A stretch of DNA of 14,733 bases from a virus (taxonomy: Duplodnaviria; Heunggongvirae; Uroviricota; Caudoviricetes): the IMG/VR virus record IMGVR_UViG_2778261529_000003; one strand, 5' to 3'. The notes under the pieces are model-generated. The model had not been told where the DNA came from and made no database searches. It saw only the letters and a list, made by a program, of their open reading frames with translations. Positions 1,445 through 14,733 of the stretch are shown here, in pieces. Each line of letters starts with the position of its first letter. The first letter of the stretch is position 1. Made by a program: the position numbers and the translations under genes.

Positions 1445-1557
1445 TTCTAATGTCTCCCCAAGTCTACTCAAGTATTTAAAAACCTCTTATAATCCGCATG
1501 TTAGCGCCCCTTTTAGTCTTTTGACGTCTACTTAAGTACTCCAAAATCTACAGTCAA

Positions 1558-2825: not shown

Positions 2826-2953
2826 CTGGTTGAGTATACAGTAGTAGACTTTGAGCGACGAAAGAAAAGGCTGTGTCTAGGGTCGCTCCCGAAAATCCGT
2901 ACACCTCGACGGACTGGTACAGCCACTACAGTAGAGGACGCTGAGGTGTGCGT

Positions 2954-3751
2954 ATGATTGATATTCATGCCGAATTAAACGAATACAAAAAAGATTTTAT
3001 TTCTTTACGTGAATTTCTTGAGGTCGTGCTTAAGGTCGCTGGTGATGATTATGATGTTTCAGATGTCATAACTTGGATACTCAGGAGAATAAGCGGAGAA
3101 CATATCCGCCTGTACACAGTAAATGAATTTAAGCTGTTGGAATCTTTTTGTAACCCGTATCGGGATGAATTTGATAATGATGTTCTTTATAGAAATCTGA
3201 ATGCGGTTCGGAAACGTGGTTGTTTACCTGGTGAGAGGGATGAAAATGGTTTTCTGGTGTCCGGTTATTGGGAAGATCCCGAATTTGAGAACATTGGATT
3301 TATAAGGGGTGAAATTTTCGCAATTTTTCCCGATGTCCTTGACGCGTTAACGAAGCTGGAAGGCGCTAACTCTTCTGAAAATGACGAGGCACAAGGACGC
3401 GATATTGAAAAGAAAGAGTTGCGTACAGAGGATGATTTATTATCCCAAATCGCAATGCTGGAAAAAGAAAACGCAGAGTTAAGGGCAAGGATAGAGCAGT
3501 TAGAGCAAGAGCGCCCGATACACTTATATAAATACTGGGATAAAGACCCATTAGCTAAGGCTATTGAGATTAGAAACAGAGAGTGGGCCAATTACGATCC
3601 AGAAAATGATTTTGCCACCAGGGGAAATCAAGAAGCGATAACCAGGGAGCTTAAGCAGTGGGGGGCAAGTAATGCACTTGCAACGCTCATAGAGAGGACT
3701 GCCTGCCCTATTAACCGAGACAACAGCCAAAAGAACGCAAAGCCGGATTAA
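2954..3751 (+). CDS. hypothetical protein, AT-rich orphan with C-terminal coiled-coil
   Basis: 265-aa ORF (ATG 2954, GAGG 7 nt upstream, TAA 3749-3751). GC is markedly lower than its neighbours. Predicted coiled-coil segment LLSQIAMLEKENAELRARIEQLEQE. No family recognised by eye. Confidence 0.6.
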   Translation: MIDIHAELNEYKKDFISLREFLEVVLKVAGDDYDVSDVITWILRRISGEHIRLYTVNEFKLLESFCNPYRDEFDNDVLYRNLNAVRKRGCLPGERDENGFLVSGYWEDPEFENIGFIRGEIFAIFPDVLDALTKLEGANSSENDEAQGRDIEKKELRTEDDLLSQIAMLEKENAELRARIEQLEQERPIHLYKYWDKDPLAKAIEIRNREWANYDPENDFATRGNQEAITRELKQWGASNALATLIERTACPINRDNSQKNAKPD

Positions 3752-3766
3752 CGCACCATACCGCAT

Positions 3767-3910
3767 ACCCTGAGGGTGATTTACTGTTACCCTGAGGGTA
3801 TTTTTTTATCTTCCCCGTCAATTTTACCATCACCCTTAGGGTAGATTTCCTCCCGATTACCATCACCCTTAGGGTAGATTTCCTTCCGGTAACCATTAGG
3901 CCTGAGGGTA
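3767..3910. repeat. array of five CC(C)TNAGGG palindromic sites including a 26-bp direct repeat (3825-3850 and 3858-3883)
   Basis: ACCCTGAGGGT at 3767-3777 and 3789-3799; TACCATCACCCTTAGGGTAGATTTCC twice, 33 bp apart; CCTGAGGG at 3901-3908. Lies in the intergenic region upstream of alpA. Confidence 0.7.
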
Positions 3911-3978
3911 TGAAAATATTCGTTATTTCTGTGCCATGATTACCTCGTCAAATTGAGTAGACGTTATGAGGTAAATAT

Positions 3979-4176
3979 ATGTCAAATACGCTTATTCGTT
4001 TAACAGAAGTTCAGCGTAGAACTGGATATAGCAAGGCATGGATTTATCGCCTTATGGGGCAAGGTAAATTTCCTGCATCAGTTAAAATTGGCTCGCGAGC
4101 TATTGCTTTCGTTGAGAGTGAAATTGACGAGTGGATTAATCAGCGTATTGCGGAATCACGCGGAACAGCTACCTGA
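3979..4176 (+). CDS. alpA: AlpA/Vis-family phage transcriptional regulator (excisionase-like HTH)
   Basis: 65-aa ORF, ATG 3979 with GAGG 7 nt upstream. Sequence RTGYSKAWIYRLMGQGKFPASVKIGSRAIAFVESEIDEWINQR matches the AlpA/prophage CP4-57 regulatory-protein pattern. Confidence 0.85.
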   Translation: MSNTLIRLTEVQRRTGYSKAWIYRLMGQGKFPASVKIGSRAIAFVESEIDEWINQRIAESRGTAT

Positions 4177-4253: not shown

Positions 4254-5054
4254 ATGAAATTTCCAAAAACGCCCGTACAGGGGCGGGGCTTCGTTCGGCC
4301 TGAAAACCAGAATCTGCAAAATTTCGGCGAAATTATCCCGGTTATTTCCGGCATTATTGGCGGGTGTGAAACCAATATTGTTAGCGCCAGAGCGTTGCAT
4401 AAGGCGTTAGGTGTAGGTCGCGTTTTCCGTTCGTGGATCAAGGGGCGCATTGAAGAATACGGCTTCACGGAAGGCGTGGATTATGAGGTTGTTGAATATT
4501 TGAGCCGACCCGATCCGGTGAGCGCAAAATCTCGCCAGCAAACAGCTCTTGAGTACATCATTACCGTGAACATGGCAAAAGAACTGGCGATGGTCGAACG
4601 CACCGAACAGGGCCGCGCCGTTCGCCAGTACTTCATCAAATGCGAGGAGGAGCTACACAAGGTAGCGCCAGTGCGTTCCGCAGCTTTACGCCGGGAACTG
4701 AAAGCCCGTATCACCGTTGCCAGCTACTTTAAGCCAATGTGTGCCGCGCTGGAGGCGTACCGGGCTGAACTGGGTAAAAACACGCTCCAGCACCATTACA
4801 CCACGGAAGCCAATATGCTGGCGCGTATCGTGCTGGGTGGCATGACTGCAAAACAGTGGGCGCAGGCGAACGGCATCACAGGCGAACCACGCGACCACAT
4901 GAGCACATTGCAGCTTGAGCACCTTTCTTACCTTGAGCAGAGCAATATCACGCTGATTGAGTTAGGCCAGGACTACCACCAGCGGAAAGCTGAATTAATT
5001 CGTCTTTCGCAGCGTTGGTTAGCCCGTCGCATGGAGGAAAACAGCCATGTGTAA
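4254..5054 (+). CDS. phage antirepressor-like protein (AntA-type N-terminal domain)
   Basis: 266-aa ORF, ATG 4254 with AGGAG upstream. N-terminal ISARALHKALGVGRVFRSWIKGRIEEYGFTEGVDYEV resembles the AntA/AntB antirepressor domain. Confidence 0.7.
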   Translation: MKFPKTPVQGRGFVRPENQNLQNFGEIIPVISGIIGGCETNIVSARALHKALGVGRVFRSWIKGRIEEYGFTEGVDYEVVEYLSRPDPVSAKSRQQTALEYIITVNMAKELAMVERTEQGRAVRQYFIKCEEELHKVAPVRSAALRRELKARITVASYFKPMCAALEAYRAELGKNTLQHHYTTEANMLARIVLGGMTAKQWAQANGITGEPRDHMSTLQLEHLSYLEQSNITLIELGQDYHQRKAELIRLSQRWLARRMEENSHV

Positions 5055-5720
5055 CGCTCTGACCGTTACAAAAAGAGAAAGCGCCCCGTTGCCGGAGCGC
5101 CTTTGTGAACAAATCGCTTACTGCGCCATATTGTTTACTGCCTTTCGGGCAGATTATAGCGTTGTGGTCGCACAGAGTGAAGGCGCTGATCACTGTTACT
5201 ACAGTACGCCAGAAATGCAGAATATTTTGCTGCAAAATGCCGTTAGCCACGCTGTCCGGAAAGCAAAAAATTTTGCTGGTGGCGCGACTGATGCGATTTT
5301 GTCAGGTCACCAGGTGCTGATCAATCTGATGTCTGATTTCGTTCTGGATAAAACAAAGGCGACTGCAGAGGGCCACCAGTGGGAAAGCTACACACTTGAA
5401 CACATTGCCAACAATGCCAGATTTGCGGCTGGTGGGCAATGTGATCAGTGTGCTGGCTTGCTGGTGGGCTATTCATGCTCTTTAACATTGCCATGCCGCG
5501 ATGTTTTCCAGGTATGCGATCCCATTTTTGTGCGCCTGTACTCTTTAAGGAATTGCTCAAGGGCAAAAGCACATGGCGCGAATCTTTCTGATTCATGCTC
5601 TATCTTTCTGCGCCGTCTTTTCCGTGCCGGTGATGGTGTATTGGTTGATTCTTTGTTGGTCATTCTGTGTACCTGTAAAGCAATGCGCCGGAGTTCCTCA
5701 CACCACGGCGATGATAGTTA

Positions 5721-5900
5721 TTATTCTGATTCTTTGGCCTTGCGGCGCTGGCGGCGTTTGATCTCGCCTTTTGCGGCAGTAACTAAAAAACCAGCGGTAC
5801 TTTCGCCAGGTTCTTTAAGTTGCTCAATATCATCCATTACTTCATGTGGGATTCTGACAGTTGTCATTTGTGATTTTGCGTTTTTTGCACCAGTTGCCAT
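5721..5900 (-). CDS. small ribbon-helix-helix (Arc/MetJ/CopG-like) DNA-binding protein, candidate island repressor
   Basis: 59-aa ORF from the internal ATG of the 5721..6077 minus ORF, with AGGAG 9 nt upstream. MATGAKNAKSQMTTVRIPHEVMDDIEQLKEPGESTAGFLVTAAKGEIKRRQRRKAKESE has a beta-strand then two helices, the RHH pattern. Transcribed divergently from the replication operon. Confidence 0.6.
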   Translation of the reverse strand: MATGAKNAKSQMTTVRIPHEVMDDIEQLKEPGESTAGFLVTAAKGEIKRRQRRKAKESE

Positions 5901-5966
5901 TTCTGGATCTCCTAAAAATTGGTGTATGTCAGTATACGCAAAAAAAATGATAAAAAAAGGCTTGAA

Positions 5967-6012
5967 GTGTATTTCACCAGTGAGTAAATTAAAAAGCAAA
6001 GGTGAAATACAC
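5967..6012. promoter_or_regulatory. perfect 12-bp inverted repeat GTGTATTTCACC (21-bp spacer) GGTGAAATACAC, candidate operator in the divergent intergenic region
   Basis: Read directly. Located between the RHH gene start (5900) and the first rightward small ORF (6094), flanked by A-tracts. Confidence 0.5.
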
Positions 6013-6093
6013 CTAAAAGAGCAACGCCCCGCAGTGCTCGCAACACATGCAGGGCGTCTAACCACCAACGATAGCAAGAGTATCGAGGTAGCT

Positions 6094-6297
6094 ATGGGAA
6101 ATCATACCACACACCCGCAAGGGCGGGACTCGCACAACCTGAATAAATACATCTGGCGTTTTATCGCCCTGAGCACGGCACAACCGCGCGTAATTCACAT
6201 CGAGGCCATCAGCGAACAGGAAGCACGCCAGCAATCTCCTGATGGCTGTGTGATGGTATTCGCCGCCCGTATTCGTCAGGGGGTAAGCCATGCATAA
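6094..6297 (+). CDS. hypothetical small protein (67 aa)
   Basis: ATG 6094 with GAGG upstream. Ends in SHA-stop with the 8-nt overlap junction CATGCATAA onto the next gene. This is the terminal segment of the long 5047..6297 frame, so the start is uncertain. Confidence 0.35.
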   Translation: MGNHTTHPQGRDSHNLNKYIWRFIALSTAQPRVIHIEAISEQEARQQSPDGCVMVFAARIRQGVSHA

Positions 6298-7078: not shown

Positions 7079-7369
7079 ATGAAAAAGAAAAATTCTGGCT
7101 TTACTGCCAGCGGTCTCTCTCGGCCTGAAATCAGACACGGAGATATTTACCGCGACACCAGACGTGGGGGACGAGTGGTTATTCGTCACGTTACGCCAGG
7201 CAATATCACCTACCGCCGTGAGGCTTACGAATATGACTGTGTAATGCCGCGCCGTCAGTTTGAGCGTGATTTTATTCTGGTTGAAAACAAACAACAGGCG
7301 GTGGCGAGACGTGCAGCCACGAATATTAAAAAAATCCGGGCAATGTTGGTTGCGGGAGGTAAGAAGTGA
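7079..7369 (+). CDS. hypothetical basic protein (96 aa)
   Basis: ATG 7079. Stop TGA overlaps the GTG start of the downstream replication gene (GTGA), indicating the same operon. Confidence 0.5.
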   Translation: MKKKNSGFTASGLSRPEIRHGDIYRDTRRGGRVVIRHVTPGNITYRREAYEYDCVMPRRQFERDFILVENKQQAVARRAATNIKKIRAMLVAGGKK

Positions 7370-9171
7370 AAAACGCACCGAATTTAAAATATCAGCCGAA
7401 GGATAAATTCACCGAGGTAATCATTTTGGCCGGGACGGATGCTTACGCCCATGCTCAACACTGGATTGAAAGCGAAGGACGAAAACACGGCGATAACGTA
7501 CCACCTGTTTACCTGGGGCCGAAGCAACTGGCAGACCTGGCGAATATCCGCATTATTGACGAGAAACGCCGCTTTGCGCGTGTCTATCTTGCGGGGGAGA
7601 TCGAGCCAATCCAGATCAATGCTATCGCTGAAAAACTGGCGCTGGCTGGCGTACAGGACGCGAAATTATACAAAGGTATCACCGATCGGGAGCCGGAAAA
7701 CTGGCGCGACTACCTGCAACGGATCCGCGAACAGGCAGAGAGTGGGGAAGTTTCGGCGATGAAATTAGCCACAAAAAATATTGACCTACCCAGGCCAGCA
7801 CTAAATCAGATGGGAGCCAGCCAGAGAGGGGAAGTGTTACTTGAATATTATGGAAGAGCACTGGCTATAAATGATGATTCTGATGTAGTTCACCATTACA
7901 ACGGAATTGTCTGGGTGCCTGTATCTGATAAGGAACTCCAGCGGTCTATGGCGAAGATTTTTATTGATGCTGGAATCAGTTATTCGCAAAACGCCATTAA
8001 ATTTGCCGTAGACACAATGAAATTGAGCCTGCCTGTTATGGGCGGGGCTGACAGGAATCTTATTGGATTCAGTAACGGGGTATTTGATACCAGGACAGGA
8101 AATTTTCGGGAGCACAACAAAAATGACTGGTTGTTAAATGCCAGTGAATTACCGTTCAGCCCACCAGCAGAGGGGGAAACGCTGGCAACACATGCGCCGA
8201 ATTTCTGGAAGTGGTTGCGTCGTTCGGTGGCAGATAATGATCGTAAAGCTGATCGCGTACTGGCGGCATTATTCATGGTACTGGCGAACCGGTACGACTG
8301 GCAGTTATTCCTTGAGGTAACTGGCCCAGGCGGAAGCGGTAAAAGTGTGATGGCGGAGATTTGTACCATGCTGGCTGGTAAGGCCAACACAGTATCGGCA
8401 AGCATGAAGGCGCTGGAAGACGCAAGGGAACGCGCGTTAGTCGTTGGCTTTTCGCTGATTATCATGCCGGATATGGCCCGCTACGCTGGAGATGGTGCAG
8501 GAATTAAGGCAATTACTGGCGGCGACAAGGTGGCAATCGACCCGAAACATAAAGCCCCCTACTCCACACGTATTCCGGCGGTAGTGCTGGCAGTAAACAA
8601 TAACGCCATGTCATTCAGTGATCGCAGTGGAGGGATCTCGCGTCGTAGGGTGATATTTAATTTCTCTGAGGTCGTACCGGAGAACGAACGCGATCCCATG
8701 CTGGTGGAAAAAATAGAAGGCGAACTGGCGGTAGTGATTCGCCACCTGCTTACTCGTTTTTCTGACCAGGATGAAGCCAGACGTCTGTTATATGAGCAGC
8801 AGAAATCAGAAGAGGCACTGGTGATAAAACGCGAGGGTGATTCACTGGTGGACTTTTGCGGCTATCTGATGTCGTTGGTTAAATGTGAAGGAATGATGGT
8901 GGGCAATGCGGAAATAGTGCCATTTAGCCCGAGGCGGTACCTGTATCATGCTTATTTAGCCTATATGTCAGCGCATGGCCTGGGAAAACCAGTATCACTG
9001 ACACGCTTTGGTACAGATATGCCAGGAGCTATGGCGGAATACGGAAAGGAGTATAAGCGGGCTAAATGCACTAAAGGCCAGGATAAAGGGCGAGTGATAA
9101 CAAATGTTCTGTTAGATGATGATGCTGATGGTTGGTTGCCAGCAGCAACAGGGATTAACGACAGAACATAA
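7366..9171 (+). CDS. replication initiator: D5_N domain plus SF3 helicase (P4 alpha C-terminal-like primase/helicase family)
   Basis: 601-aa ORF, GTG start with GGAGG upstream. Walker A GPGGSGKS; D5_N-like segment NGVFDTRTGNFREHNKNDW. Followed immediately by an iteron array. Confidence 0.88.
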   Translation: MKNAPNLKYQPKDKFTEVIILAGTDAYAHAQHWIESEGRKHGDNVPPVYLGPKQLADLANIRIIDEKRRFARVYLAGEIEPIQINAIAEKLALAGVQDAKLYKGITDREPENWRDYLQRIREQAESGEVSAMKLATKNIDLPRPALNQMGASQRGEVLLEYYGRALAINDDSDVVHHYNGIVWVPVSDKELQRSMAKIFIDAGISYSQNAIKFAVDTMKLSLPVMGGADRNLIGFSNGVFDTRTGNFREHNKNDWLLNASELPFSPPAEGETLATHAPNFWKWLRRSVADNDRKADRVLAALFMVLANRYDWQLFLEVTGPGGSGKSVMAEICTMLAGKANTVSASMKALEDARERALVVGFSLIIMPDMARYAGDGAGIKAITGGDKVAIDPKHKAPYSTRIPAVVLAVNNNAMSFSDRSGGISRRRVIFNFSEVVPENERDPMLVEKIEGELAVVIRHLLTRFSDQDEARRLLYEQQKSEEALVIKREGDSLVDFCGYLMSLVKCEGMMVGNAEIVPFSPRRYLYHAYLAYMSAHGLGKPVSLTRFGTDMPGAMAEYGKEYKRAKCTKGQDKGRVITNVLLDDDADGWLPAATGINDRT

Positions 9172-13035: not shown

Positions 13036-13088
13036 TGTCTATAGCCGTCTACTCAAGTTTTCTACATAATATAAGGAAATAGCATGTT
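13036..13088. other. degenerate copy of the att-proximal arm sequence found just downstream of thrW
   Basis: Collinear anchors TGTCT, 6 nt, GTCTACTCAAGT, 22-23 nt, GCATGTT are shared between 1451-1502 and 13036-13088. ACTCAAGTTTT also occurs at 12999-13009. Confidence 0.5.
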
Positions 13089-13125: not shown

Positions 13126-13953
13126 ATGATAAACTTAGATATGGATGTTGTGGTTGGACATGGGCAGAACGATTTTGAAGAATTAGAAATGAATTCCGGC
13201 ATAAAGGTTTTTGCTGGAGCTTCTGACATCACCCAAATTACAACAAGCACTATTTTAGATGATTCAGTCCCCAAAAAATCAACCTCTATACATGGGCTTA
13301 GGAATATGTTCAAACATACATTTGATGGATCGTTTGGACAAAATTTTGAACTTAGAATTGATGATCCTGAAAAGATAAAAAGATTTAATGAAATTGGCAG
13401 GGGTGTTTTTTTTGATGTTATGTCATATTACATCTCTAAAGGAATGGGAATAGCTCACCATCTTAAGAGCCAGAAAGCAATCGACTTAGTAGAGCGTCTT
13501 AAACCGCTTGAAAAACAACTTTTGATAAGAATTCAGGAACCTATACAGAATTTACATAAAACAGTTGAGAAACAAAAATATAATGTACTTCTGAGAAGAA
13601 GAACACCAACTAAAAAATTAGTTGTTGCTAAAATGGATACGCAGACGCTCTTCAATATCAATGTAGAGCATGAATCTGCTCAACCAGTAGAAGAAAATGT
13701 TATTATAACTAGGTTTAATATGTTAACAGGAACTGGTCGATTGTTATTAGATAGACAGTCAGATTCAATTGCCTTTAGACACCATCTTAATTGGGAACAT
13801 GTATTGCAGTCTCAGAAAAATAAGTTTTCAAGGAATCTTGATAGGAATAACAGAGGTGGTAAAGACGCTTTTATACCTATAACCATTTCTGCTTATGAGT
13901 TGCGCGATCATATTGGAGAGCTAAAGGCTTATATAATTAGAGAAATATTGTAA
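13126..13953 (+). CDS. hypothetical soluble protein (275 aa), first gene of an AT-rich cargo operon
   Basis: Long ORF in strongly AT-rich DNA, K/N/I-rich codon usage unlike the island core. Stop TAA 13951-13953 directly abuts the next ATG. No family recognised. Confidence 0.65.
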   Translation: MINLDMDVVVGHGQNDFEELEMNSGIKVFAGASDITQITTSTILDDSVPKKSTSIHGLRNMFKHTFDGSFGQNFELRIDDPEKIKRFNEIGRGVFFDVMSYYISKGMGIAHHLKSQKAIDLVERLKPLEKQLLIRIQEPIQNLHKTVEKQKYNVLLRRRTPTKKLVVAKMDTQTLFNINVEHESAQPVEENVIITRFNMLTGTGRLLLDRQSDSIAFRHHLNWEHVLQSQKNKFSRNLDRNNRGGKDAFIPITISAYELRDHIGELKAYIIREIL

Positions 13954-14733
13954 ATGAAGATGCCCTCAATCAAAGTTATTTCACTTATATTAATAGCTAT
14001 TGTATGGTATTTTTACTTTTCTCATTTCAATCATTGGGATAGCCCGTTAGATATCTTTAATGCTAGCAAATGGATGGGTTTTTCCAATGATAAAGGTGAT
14101 TGGGGCACTTTCGGGGATTTTGTAGGAGGTGTGCTTAATCCTATCTTGACCTTCATTACAATTGTTATGCTCATTAATTCCTTGAAACTTCAACGAGAAG
14201 CAAACGAGCAACTAATTAAAGACGAAAGAAGACAAGAGAAAGACGTTCTTCTAAAACGGTTTGAAGACGGTTTTTATAACCTTATCTCTTCAGAAAGAGA
14301 GGAGTTTAGTTGTTTTACTATTAACATTAACGGAAAAGAATACCGCTCATCTGCTGCTGTTAGTGAATTGGAAGAGGCAATATGGGCTTTTATTGAGAAA
14401 CAAATAGATGAAAAAGGAGCTTGCGAAATTGAGGATGTTAAAAATTACATAAATAAAATTGATGAGGATTCATCTATGGCAATATTTTCCATGGTGCGAT
14501 GTGTATATGTTGTTTTTAAGGTTGTTAAGGATAAATGCCCTGAAGAACATCAAGATTACTACTTAGATATTTTTATGAATATGTTACCAGTTAAACTGGT
14601 AAATTTAGTTGCTATTGTGTCTGTGTATATGGACTGGAAAAACGTAAAATATATTATTGATGGTGGAAAAGGATTTTCGGATAATGAAGCAGTTAAAGAA
14701 TATATTAATACTTGGAAGGAGTTTCATGAATAA
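13954..14733 (+). CDS. hypothetical membrane protein (259 aa) with two N-terminal transmembrane helices, candidate effector
   Basis: Hydrophobic segments VISLILIAIVWYFYFSHF and FGDFVGGVLNPILTFITIVMLINSL, then a charged, probably helical cytoplasmic domain. Zero-nt intergenic spacing from the upstream gene. Confidence 0.7.
   Translation: MKMPSIKVISLILIAIVWYFYFSHFNHWDSPLDIFNASKWMGFSNDKGDWGTFGDFVGGVLNPILTFITIVMLINSLKLQREANEQLIKDERRQEKDVLLKRFEDGFYNLISSEREEFSCFTININGKEYRSSAAVSELEEAIWAFIEKQIDEKGACEIEDVKNYINKIDEDSSMAIFSMVRCVYVVFKVVKDKCPEEHQDYYLDIFMNMLPVKLVNLVAIVSVYMDWKNVKYIIDGGKGFSDNEAVKEYINTWKEFHE

What the first reader, a model, noticed from the sequence alone, without database searches (positions are those of the whole stretch)
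2954..3751. AT-rich orphan gene between int and alpA: second candidate accessory locus
This 265-aa ORF is clearly lower in GC than int and alpA on either side, carries a coiled-coil, and has no family I can recognise. The slot next to the integrase is a classic variable region in tRNA-integrated satellites. It could be a single-gene defense, anti-defense or helper-interference factor.
Basis: partly seen in the sequence, partly recalled or inferred. Interest (0 to 1): 0.55.

Follow-up and report, generated by a model that had tools for sequence, protein, structure and literature searches.

The report
Candidate regulator cassette gating satellite alpA
The orphan gene between the integrase and alpA of this E. 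coli phage-satellite island looks less like defence cargo and more like the protein half of a swappable control cassette (leader RNA, modular protein, array of phased DNA sites) placed directly in front of alpA, the island's master activator.

Summary
The ORF is real: 2954-3751, 265 aa, with a short leucine zipper and no hit in Pfam, NCBIfam, PHROGs, PADLOC, PDB or BFVD. Its GC (41.5%) is below int (47.7%) but about equal to alpA (42.9%).

The slot is variable. In a near-identical island of another E. coli strain, exactly 2874-3957 is replaced by a different gene with different repeats. Other islands carry a DUF6387 gene there, or nothing.

The gene is not free cargo, though. It belongs to a three-part cassette:
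- a leader matching Rfam RF02996 "int-alpA RNA" (2870-2937);
- a modular protein: variable N-domain, zipper, and a conserved new ~70-aa C-domain;
- five ACCCTNAGGGT-type palindromes (3767-3909), spaced in multiples of about 11 bp, ending a fixed distance before alpA.

The arrangement C-domain gene, palindrome array, alpA recurs across Enterobacterales and Pasteurellaceae. A second C-domain type on the same N-domain comes with a different repeat (CACTTCCA). The repeats do not track AlpA, Int or AntA.

Best reading (about 0.5): a sequence-specific regulator of the alpA promoter, with the N-domain as sensor. This would be functionally analogous to the SaPI repressor Stl. Whether it represses or activates is unresolved, and nothing has been tested experimentally.

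The parts
2874..2953 (+). Left part of the replaceable cassette (the cassette as a whole spans 2874-3957): the 5' leader of the slot gene
   Evidence: blastn of the window against APEC E123 (L011): 98% identity over 1-2873, no alignment over 2874-3957, then 90-96% identity from 3958 on.
2870..2937 (+). Leader RNA matching Rfam RF02996 'int-alpA RNA'. It ends 17 nt before the start codon. The loop of its second hairpin (ACACCUC) is complementary to the gene's Shine-Dalgarno region.
   Evidence: 45.5 bits against a gathering score of 35.8. The same motif ends about 15 nt before the first slot ORF in 11 other loci, including one whose slot gene is DUF6387. It is absent where the slot is empty. 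In the minimum-free-energy fold of 2880-2965, AUCCGUACACCUC pairs with GAGGUGUGCGUAU, z = -2.4.
2954..3358 (+). Target CDS, N-terminal domain (aa 1-135). It is a variable alpha/beta domain that begins with a winged-helix-like topology. Proposed role: sensor or input module.
   Evidence: AlphaFold2 pLDDT is about 79-93 for most of aa 11-130. The secondary-structure order is a1-b1-a2-a3-b2-b3. Identity among homologues is only 25-40%. In some relatives it is replaced by unrelated N-termini or encoded as a separate ORF. The same domain is also found fused to a different C-domain.
3359..3511 (+). Disordered acidic linker (aa 136-157) followed by a leucine zipper (aa 158-186)
   Evidence: pLDDT is below 50 for aa 139-157. 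A helix spans aa 159-186. Conserved heptad positions are I166 (>=90%), L169, L176 (>=90%) and L183. Pfam gives weak bZIP_2/DivIC hits.
3512..3751 (+). Conserved C-terminal domain (aa 187-255; signature ERPI..DDPL.LAIEIRNREWANYDP..TRGNQ.AI..L...G....A.AIE.VACPI.R), a short tail, and the stop codon. Proposed role: DNA-binding module.
   Evidence: 17 invariant columns across 20 homologues lie between L169 and R255, most of them within aa 188-255. The domain defines a small family: 122 representatives among 1.84 billion proteins. Three predicted helices. No Pfam or PDB relative.
3767..3909 (.). Operator-like array. Four 11-bp palindromes ACCCT(G/T)AGGGT at 3767-3777, 3789-3799, 3832-3842 and 3865-3875, plus a stretched palindrome ACCATTAGGCCTGAGGGT at 3892-3909. 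Centre-to-centre spacing is 22, 43, 33 and about 31-34 bp.
   Evidence: 4 matches against 0.28 expected, all within 110 bp. Repeats and inverted repeats were found. In 12 loci the spacings cluster at 22-23, 31-34, 42-44 and 53-56 bp (Rayleigh R = 0.77 at a period of 10.5). The last site lies 75 or 107-108 nt from the alpA ATG in most loci.
3932..3940 (+). Possible extended -10 element of the alpA promoter (TGCCATGAT). This is inferred.
   Evidence: A conserved TG(C/T)(C/A)AT(G/C/T)AT block sits at the same position in type-A loci. No consensus sigma-70 promoter was found by the scan.
3940..3975 (+). Inverted repeat TTACCTCGTC...GACGTTATGAGGTAA covering the alpA Shine-Dalgarno sequence
   Evidence: The consensus form in relatives is CTCGTAA-N13-TTACGAG. 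The arms change in a compensatory way in L011 (CACCTT/AAGGTG) and L039 (CTCCTGTAG/CTACAGGAG).
3979..4176 (+). alpA (65 aa), the gene placed under the array
   Evidence: Pfam Phage_AlpA, E = 2.4e-19. AlpA is the auto-activating master activator of Gram-negative PICIs (PMC6092414, PMC11773190).

Best explanation
The gene encodes a modular, sequence-specific DNA-binding regulator of the alpA promoter. It is the protein component of a swappable control cassette made of the int-alpA leader RNA, the regulator gene and an operator array.

Proposed mechanism:
- The short leucine zipper makes a dimer.
- The two conserved C-terminal domains read the half-sites of the ACCCTNAGGGT palindromes.
- Several dimers fill the five helically phased sites that run from the gene's stop codon to the -35 region of alpA.
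- The variable N-terminal domain is the input module. It most plausibly binds a helper-phage protein and changes DNA occupancy.
- The cassette would thereby couple AlpA-driven induction of the satellite to a particular helper.

I favour repression or roadblock in the quiescent state, relieved by the phage. That is a functional analogue of SaPI Stl. The site layout fits a phage-responsive activator almost as well.

Shown here: the anatomy, the cassette replacement, the conserved linkage of C-domain type with repeat type, and the phasing.
Inferred: DNA binding by the C-domain, the sensor role of the N-domain, and the sign of regulation.
For: 1. Cassette swap in an otherwise identical island. In APEC E123, AlpA is 63/65 identical, int DNA is 98% identical and the rest is 90-96% identical. 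The slot gene and all upstream repeats differ, and homology resumes only 21 nt before the alpA ATG. So the repeats do not belong to AlpA, Int or AntA.

2. AlpA identity does not predict the repeat type. Salmonella AlpA is 48/66 identical and has the same palindromes. E123 AlpA is 63/65 identical and has different repeats.

3. Conserved synteny. The order C-domain gene, array, alpA (followed by antA in many loci) is found in the Salmonella, Yersinia and metagenome loci, and target homologue then alpA and/or antA in 18 of 20 genome loci from Enterobacterales and Pasteurellaceae. Nearly every intergenic region examined carries several copies (up to 6) of TAC-CCT-N-AGG-GTA-like palindromes, or TACTATNATAGTA in Pasteurellaceae. 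A distant metagenomic relative has ACCC-N3-GGGT sites.

4. N-domain exchange leaves the array unchanged (the P0034 locus and the split-gene forms). The same N-domain family fused to a different, zipper-less C-domain goes with CACTTCCA direct repeats in three divergent loci. Zipper with palindromes, no zipper with direct repeats.

5. Helical phasing of the sites and a fixed distance to alpA.

6. A motif-first scan of IMG/VR for paired palindromes returned 48 stretches. In 33 a C-domain ORF ends next to the sites, and 4 more are cut off by a contig end.

7. In E. coli the gene (171 genomes) and the repeat+alpA segment (164 genomes) have almost the same distribution.

8. Published context. AlpA is the auto-activating master switch and is induced by helper phage through an unknown route. 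Whether a global repressor exists in Gram-negative PICIs was stated to be unclear (PMC6092414; PMC11773190).
Against: - There is no homology or fold evidence that the C-domain binds DNA. Judged by eye from the sequence, it is not basic.
- The gene and the array are adjacent. Much of their co-variation could be linkage between fixed recombination points rather than function.
- A tentative residue-to-base correlation (TRGNQ loop with CCCT/AGGG) fails in a Citrobacter locus. That locus has TTKPKST in the loop but keeps ACCCTNAGGGT sites.
- Many functional PICIs have an empty slot (EcCIMP1, PMC11773190; locus L002). The protein is therefore not required for PICI regulation in general.
- All five sites lie upstream of the putative -10, so a repressor is not clearly favoured over an activator.
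- The promoter itself is only inferred.
- The many near-identical E. coli islands inflate the counts.
Confidence: 0.5

Rival explanations
1. Same regulator, opposite sign. The protein is a phage-responsive activator. It binds the phased upstream sites, with the proximal one abutting the -35 region, and turns on an intrinsically weak alpA promoter when its N-domain detects the helper phage.
For: The array lies entirely upstream of the putative -10, and its proximal site is at about -40 to -55. No -35 consensus is present. This layout is typical of activator-dependent promoters (general knowledge of OmpR/PhoB-type promoters). In PIME1 elements, a LuxR-family regulator next to alpA is required for excision (bioRxiv 10.64898/2026.01.12.698999). 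The structured leader with anti-SD potential could keep the gene silent until a signal arrives.
Against: No intrinsic terminator is conserved between the slot gene and alpA, so an unoccupied array would allow read-through into alpA. The transcription start site is unknown. There are no experimental data.
Confidence: 0.22
2. The gene is accessory cargo: a single-gene defence, anti-defence or helper-interference factor. The neighbouring palindromes are sites for some other factor (phage, host or AlpA partner) and travel with the gene only because they are adjacent.
For: The slot is variable and holds unrelated genes in related islands. The N-domain is low in GC and diversifies quickly. Satellites are known to carry defence genes in hotspots, and EcCIMP1 shows unexplained superinfection immunity (PMC11773190). 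Adjacency alone can produce co-inheritance of gene and repeats.
Against: There is no PADLOC hit and no enzymatic, nucleotide-binding or membrane domain. The conserved part of the protein is the part next to the array. The C-domain/array pairing survives divergence down to about 30% identity and across bacterial families. A different C-domain brings a different repeat. The sites are phased and sit at a fixed distance from alpA.
Confidence: 0.15
3. The cassette is an iteron-type replication or maintenance module. The protein would be an initiator or centromere-binding protein with a winged-helix N-domain, and the phased repeats would be its iterons or centromere.
Against: There is no Rep, ParB or ParR family hit. 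The sites are palindromes rather than direct iterons. The island has its own D5_N/DUF5906 primase-helicase, and PICI origins lie downstream of pri (PMC10111431). Islands with an empty slot are mobilised normally (PMC11773190). The array keeps a fixed distance to the alpA start.
Confidence: 0.05

Closest known systems
SaPI Stl / Gram-positive PICI Rpr master repressors
   Same: Both are encoded beside the integrase. Both are modular, with a conserved DNA-binding part and a highly variable part that in Stl binds a helper-phage protein. Both show allelic replacement between otherwise similar islands. Both have multiple sites in front of the genes that start the island's cycle (Stl features as summarised in PMC6092414).
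   Different: There is no sequence or fold similarity. Stl uses an N-terminal HTH and is transcribed divergently from the genes it controls. Here the conserved module is a new C-terminal domain behind a leucine zipper. The gene is co-directional with alpA and is optional among related islands. DNA binding, phage sensing and repression are all untested.
Rfam RF02996, int-alpA RNA motif
   Same: The leader at 2870-2937 is a member (45.5 bits, gathering score 35.8) and lies between int and alpA, as the family name implies.
   Different: Rfam files it as an sRNA gene. In the 12 loci examined here it always ends about 15 nt before the first ORF of the slot, whatever that ORF encodes. Its model includes that ORF's Shine-Dalgarno sequence. 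It therefore looks like a cis-acting 5' leader, and in some members possibly also the int terminator.
MerR-family regulators
   Same: Overall logic: a winged-helix-like N-terminus, a coiled-coil dimeriser, a further small domain, and palindromic sites at a promoter with a poor -35. Gram-negative PICIs are drawn with alpA or merR as their regulator (PMC6092414, Fig. 1 legend).
   Different: There is no MerR or HTH_17 Pfam hit. DNA specificity tracks the C-domain, not the N-terminal winged-helix-like part. Helix a3 of that part is hydrophobic and alike in proteins with different repeats. The sites lie upstream of the promoter, not in its spacer.
LuxR-family regulator adjacent to alpA in PIME1 integrative mobilizable elements
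   Same: It is a second, element-encoded transcription factor next to alpA in an int-alpA element, and it is needed for excision (bioRxiv 10.64898/2026.01.12.698999).
   Different: It belongs to an unrelated protein family and is oriented divergently. Those elements depend on conjugative plasmids, not phages.
Defence hotspots of phage satellites (P4 psu-int region; PICI accessory regions)
   Same: Both are variable positions next to the integrase where unrelated genes replace one another.
   Different: This occupant has no defence-family hit. It comes with its own leader and with a cis-acting array that replaces the alpA promoter region.

Membership tests
Gram-negative PICI (the element that carries the gene) | Tyrosine integrase at one end, next to a tRNA attachment site | tested here: met
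   tRNA-Thr at 1369-1444 and int at 1611-2825, with Arm-DNA-bind_3 and Phage_integrase domains. This is the same thrW site as EcCIMP1 (PMC11773190).
Gram-negative PICI (the element that carries the gene) | Co-oriented alpA, a Bro-N/AntA zone, a primase (pri), and no phage structural or lysis genes | tested here: met
   alpA, AntA and the D5_N/DUF5906/Pox_D5 primase are all on the + strand. RefSeq annotation of the identical island lists no structural genes. The right end of the island is outside the window.
Gram-negative PICI (the element that carries the gene) | Excision, replication and packaging induced by a helper phage | not testable with these tools
   Needs experiments.
Stl/Rpr master repressors of Gram-positive PICIs | Recognisable HTH DNA-binding domain | tested here: not met
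   No HTH family in Pfam or NCBIfam at E <= 0.1. No fold match.
Stl/Rpr master repressors of Gram-positive PICIs | Transcribed divergently from the operon it represses | tested here: not met
   int, the target and alpA are all on the + strand.
Stl/Rpr master repressors of Gram-positive PICIs | Binds operators in front of the island's activation genes and is released by a helper-phage protein | not testable with these tools
   A cognate-looking array is present. Binding and derepression need EMSA, reporter and pull-down experiments.
Known anti-phage defence systems (PADLOC-DB 2.0) | Match to a defence-protein HMM | tested here: not met
   0 families at E <= 1.
Rfam RF02996 int-alpA RNA (the leader, not the protein) | Covariance-model score at or above the gathering threshold, and a position between int and alpA | tested here: met
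   45.5 bits against 35.8, model positions 1-71 of 71, at 2870-2937.
MerR family | MerR-type HTH domain, and an operator inside an over-long -35/-10 spacer | tested here: not met
   No MerR Pfam hit. The palindromes lie upstream of the putative -10, not in a spacer.
Iteron-binding Rep initiators / ParB-ParR centromere binders | Membership of a Rep or Par protein family, with direct-repeat iterons | tested here: not met
   No such Pfam or NCBIfam hit. The sites are palindromic.

The most novel reading that the evidence does not exclude
A subset of Gram-negative PICI-like satellites, and some related int-alpA elements, carry a previously unrecognised class of plug-in master regulators. Each has an exchangeable sensor domain fused to one of at least two new DNA-binding domains, and each comes with its own phased operator array that replaces the native alpA promoter. 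The orphan Rfam 'int-alpA RNA' is the translational leader of whatever gene sits in this slot. Swapping the cassette would re-programme which helper phage induces the island. This would be the missing Stl-like link between helper phage and AlpA in Gram-negative bacteria.
Probability: 0.3. Interest if true: 0.8.

Novelty: new variant of a known kind. Interest (0 to 1): 0.62.

Why it matters
How Gram-negative PICIs sense their helper phage is an open question. AlpA is known to be the auto-activating master switch and to be induced by helper phage, but the route is unknown. Whether a global repressor exists was explicitly left unclear (PMC6092414), and it was still unresolved for the thrW island EcCIMP1 (PMC11773190).

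This locus offers a concrete, easily tested candidate for part of that link: a compact cassette of about 1.1 kb in which protein, cis sites and target promoter are all defined. Natural allelic swaps in otherwise isogenic islands are available as ready-made controls.

It also gives a plausible role, as a 5' leader of slot genes, to an orphan Rfam motif. And it defines two uncharacterised candidate DNA-binding domains.

If the defence reading were right instead, the gene would be a new single-gene system. The evidence here points away from that.

Tried and rejected
Searches that found nothing:
- Family searches of the whole protein (Pfam, NCBIfam, PHROGs, PADLOC) gave only coiled-coil noise.
- Pfam on 63 family representatives and on 54 C-domain segments gave nothing consistent. 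There were 3 weak DUF4287 hits and single RecX three-helix hits.
- A profile search of PDB sequences with the C-domain gave E >= 0.39.
- tblastn against phage and plasmid collections gave no match.

Jobs that could not be run:
- The afdb50 fold library was unavailable.

Ideas tested and dropped:
- DUF6387, the occupant of the same slot in another island, is unrelated to the target.
- AlpA as the binder of the palindromes: rejected. AlpA that is 97% identical sits behind entirely different repeats, and AlpA that is 73% identical sits behind the same ones.
- The palindromes as integrase arm sites: rejected. The arm-type repeats are GTCTACTYAAGTA at 1462, 1526 and 13047.
- The palindromes as plain terminators: stems are only 5 bp, and the T-run is not conserved in other loci.
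- A residue-to-base specificity code (TRGNQ loop with CCCT/AGGG; SKPTQ/APKAE with CTAT/ATAG): dropped after the Citrobacter counter-example.

Other:
- EcCIMP1_002, the slot gene of the published thrW PICI, is a different, tiny ORF.
- attR was not found in the window.

Full report
**Context.** The window starts in E. coli proA. It then runs through tRNA-Thr(CGT) (1369-1444) and a tyrosine integrase (1611-2825) to the target ORF and alpA (3979-4176). Beyond alpA lie an AntA/Bro-type gene (4254-5054), small ORFs, a D5_N/DUF5906/Pox_D5 primase (7366-9171), and further genes annotated in an identical RefSeq island as ProQ/FinO and PerC. This is the four-zone layout described for Gram-negative PICIs: integration, Bro, replication, late (PMC10111431). 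The integration site, thrW, is the one used by the experimentally verified PICI EcCIMP1 (PMC11773190).

**The observation.**
- The ORF is real. Homologues begin MIDI..., which fixes the start at the ATG at 2954 (265 aa) with a GAGG 8 nt upstream.
- It has a 336-member cluster at >=90% identity. Full-length relatives reach down to about 34% identity in E. coli and Salmonella, with a 60%-identical one in Citrobacter and a shorter relative in Yersinia.
- The DNA is present in 171 of 5426 complete E. coli genomes, always chromosomal.
- The coiled coil is a short leucine zipper. AlphaFold2 gives a helix at aa 159-186, with conserved I166, L169, L176 and L183.
- Nothing is recognised by Pfam, NCBIfam, PHROGs or PADLOC.
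- GC is 41.5%, against 47.7% for int but 42.9% for alpA. The "lower than both neighbours" claim therefore holds only for int.

**Protein anatomy.**
- The alignment of 20 homologues shows a variable N-terminal region, a disordered acidic linker, the zipper, and a strongly conserved C-terminal domain of about 70 aa. Its signature is ERPI..DDPL.LAIEIRNREWANYDP..TRGNQ.AI..L...G....A.AIE.VACPI.R.
- An exhaustive profile search of 1.84 billion representative proteins finds only 122 relatives. Most share just the zipper and C-domain behind unrelated N-termini. About ten share only the N-domain.
- Those N-only relatives carry a second, unrelated C-domain (GKDTAL.IIAGLA...NKSALA...) and have no zipper. 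I call this type B.
- The AlphaFold2 model (mean pLDDT 76; about 79-93 across most of the N-domain) gives a winged-helix-like a1-b1-a2-a3-b2-b3 start and three helices in the C-domain.
- No PDB or BFVD structure matches convincingly. A C-domain profile finds nothing in PDB sequences or Pfam.

**The slot is replaceable.**
- In APEC E123 the island matches the window at 98% up to position 2873 and at 90-96% from 3958 onward. In between lies a 238-aa gene with an unrelated N-terminus and only a faint version of the C-domain (16 bits), followed by quite different repeats.
- AlpA is 63/65 identical in the two islands.
- Other thrW islands have a DUF6387 gene in the slot, or no gene at all. EcCIMP1 has a tiny unrelated ORF there.
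- In 5426 genomes, the target cassette occurs in 171, the DUF6387 cassette in 97 and the E123 cassette in 26.

**What travels with the gene, part 1: the palindrome array.**
- Between the stop codon and alpA lie four perfect 11-bp palindromes ACCCT(G/T)AGGGT (3767, 3789, 3832, 3865) and a stretched one (ACCATTAGGCCTGAGGGT, 3892-3909).
- With one mismatch allowed, the window holds four matches where 0.28 are expected, all in this 110-bp stretch.
- The same motif, in 3-6 copies, fills the equivalent intergenic region in most of the E. coli, Salmonella, Yersinia, Kluyvera, Raoultella, Pantoea, Symbiopectobacterium, Xenorhabdus and Cedecea/Atlantibacter loci (degenerate in the last two; few or no clear copies in the Photorhabdus loci). 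Pasteurellaceae and a low-GC metagenome locus have TACTATNATAGTA-type palindromes at the same place. A distant metagenomic relative has ACCC-N3-GGGT sites.
- In 18 of 20 genome loci the target homologue is followed by alpA and/or antA.
- Site spacings cluster at 22-23, 31-34, 42-44 and 53-56 bp, that is 2, 3, 4 and 5 helical turns (Rayleigh R = 0.77, n = 37; the loci are not independent). The last site is 75 or 107-108 nt from the alpA ATG in most loci.

**What travels with the gene, part 2: the leader RNA.**
- The leader at 2870-2937 is a full-length match to Rfam RF02996 "int-alpA RNA" (45.5 bits against 35.8).
- In 11 further loci the motif ends about 15 nt before the first ORF of the slot. 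This includes the DUF6387 gene and the type-B genes. It is missing where the slot is empty.
- The loop of its second hairpin (ACACCUC) is complementary to the gene's SD region. The minimum-free-energy fold pairs them (z = -2.4).

**Which factor do the repeats belong to?**
- Not AlpA. A 97%-identical AlpA sits behind different repeats, and a 73%-identical one sits behind the same repeats.
- Not Int or AntA. Both are near-identical in E123.
- Not Int arm sites. Those are GTCTACTYAAGTA at 1462, 1526 and 13047.
- Not the N-domain. Its helix a3 is alike in type-A and type-B proteins, and N-domains are exchanged or split off while the palindromes stay.
- The repeats follow the C-domain type. Type A (with zipper) goes with palindromes. 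Type B (no zipper) goes with 4-7 CACTTCCA direct repeats in three divergent loci, again just upstream of alpA.
- A search that started from the DNA alone (two palindromes 10-34 bp apart, all of IMG/VR) returned 48 stretches. In 33 a type-A C-domain ORF ends next to the sites, and 4 more are truncated by a contig end. Many of these are near-duplicates of the E. coli island, so this shows specificity rather than 37 independent events.

**Interpretation.**
- The simplest account is that the protein is a dimeric, sequence-specific DNA-binding protein. Its C-domains read the palindrome half-sites, and several dimers occupy one face of the DNA in front of alpA.
- AlpA is the auto-activating master activator of Gram-negative PICIs and is switched on by helper phage through an unknown route. 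Whether these islands have a global repressor was left open (PMC6092414; PMC11773190).
- A regulator with a fast-evolving, exchangeable N-domain, placed on the alpA promoter, is what a helper-sensing switch would look like. The functional analogy is to SaPI Stl.
- The cassette also brings its own core promoter. Homology to other cassettes resumes only about 20 nt before the ATG, and type-A loci share a TGnCATGAT-like block about 40 nt upstream of the ATG. So it rewires alpA control rather than decorating it.
- I cannot fix the sign. All sites lie upstream of the putative -10 and there is no -35 consensus, which would suit an activator. Against that, there is no conserved terminator between the co-directional slot gene and alpA, and a positive-feedback gene needs to be held off. 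Both points suit a repressor or roadblock.

**Caveats.**
- DNA binding is inferred from genomic association only. The C-domain has no known fold relative and, judged by eye from its sequence, is not basic.
- Gene and array are adjacent, so linkage contributes to their co-variation.
- A tentative specificity code (TRGNQ loop with CCCT/AGGG) fails in a Citrobacter locus, where TTKPKST is followed by unchanged ACCCTNAGGGT sites. I dropped it.
- Functional PICIs exist without any slot gene, so this is an optional layer of control.
- Defence or interference activity has not been excluded. It is merely unsupported: no PADLOC hit, no catalytic or membrane domain, and no relatives in phages or plasmids.
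- I found no paper describing this protein, its C-domain or the array.

**Verdict.** The best-supported reading is not cargo. It is a new family of modular regulators that, together with the int-alpA leader RNA and a phased operator array, forms a swappable control cassette for the satellite's master activator. I rate it a new variant of a known kind (satellite master regulators), of moderate-to-high interest, and resting wholly on comparative genomics.

Noticed in passing
window 2870-2937 (+): This is a full-length match to Rfam RF02996 'int-alpA RNA', which Rfam files as an sRNA. In 12 loci it ends about 15 nt before the first ORF of the int-alpA slot, whatever that ORF is. Its model includes that ORF's Shine-Dalgarno sequence, and the hairpin-2 loop is anti-SD-like. 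It looks like a cis-acting leader. In the Rfam consensus it also resembles a stem plus U-tract terminator for int.
   Followed up: partly
window 3940-3975 (+); L011 4990-5015; L039 2710-2740: An inverted repeat covers the alpA Shine-Dalgarno sequence (CTCGTAA-N13-TTACGAG in most loci). Its arms change in a compensatory way in two divergent loci (CACCTT/AAGGTG and CTCCTGTAG/CTACAGGAG). It could be an SD-sequestering hairpin controlling alpA translation, or a protein-binding site. It stays with alpA when the cassette is swapped.
   Followed up: partly
L033 6754-7047; L038 3775-3976; L039 2508-2747: A second slot-protein family has the same N-domain but a different, zipper-less C-domain (GKDTAL.IIAGLA...NKSALA). 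It also sits between int and alpA and is followed by 4-7 CACTTCCA direct repeats.
   Followed up: partly
window 1462-1474, 1526-1538, 13047-13059: Three copies of GTCTACTYAAGTA (none expected by chance) flank the island's left end and lie near 13.05 kb. They are probably integrase arm-type sites, which would place the island's right arm around 13 kb. attR itself was not found in the window.
   Followed up: partly
window 13126-14733: Two adjacent ORFs (275 aa and at least 259 aa, the second running off the window) have about 33% GC, far below the rest of the island (46%). RefSeq annotates both as hypothetical. It lies beyond the putative right-arm integrase site.
   Followed up: no
window 5047-6297: The 416-aa + strand ORF listed here is probably spurious. 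RefSeq annotates small genes instead: YlcI/YnfO on the - strand and Icd-like on the + strand. Related islands carry isrK and C4 (P4 CI-like) immunity RNAs in this zone, but the window has none at the Rfam gathering threshold.
   Followed up: partly
L003 10358-11239 (E. coli UTAK-8) and 97 E. coli genomes: A DUF6387 protein occupies the same int-alpA slot behind the same int-alpA leader RNA. It has no obvious repeat array downstream. It may be true cargo.
   Followed up: partly
L024-L028, L031 (Pasteurellaceae bacterium Macca): One genome holds at least six copies of the C-domain gene plus antA module on five different contigs.
   Followed up: no
L087 (IMGVR_UViG_3300037313_000197, 126.9 kb): There are 21 copies of ACCCTNAGGGT in 14 kb of a large viral contig, with no C-domain, alpA or int gene nearby. 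This is an unrelated use of the same palindrome.
   Followed up: no
L075 5081-7025: A distant C-domain protein (258 aa, with an HTH_17-like N-terminal motif) followed by two ACCCTNAGGGT sites sits among Cro/CI-type HTH genes on a 39-kb viral contig. The family is therefore not confined to int-alpA islands.
   Followed up: no
L005, L006, L007 (Yersinia enterocolitica): The same int, split slot genes, alpA, antA module lies next to three different chromosomal neighbourhoods in three assemblies. In Yersinia and several other genera the N-domain is a separate ORF of about 100 aa upstream of a zipper plus C-domain ORF of about 150 aa.
   Followed up: partly
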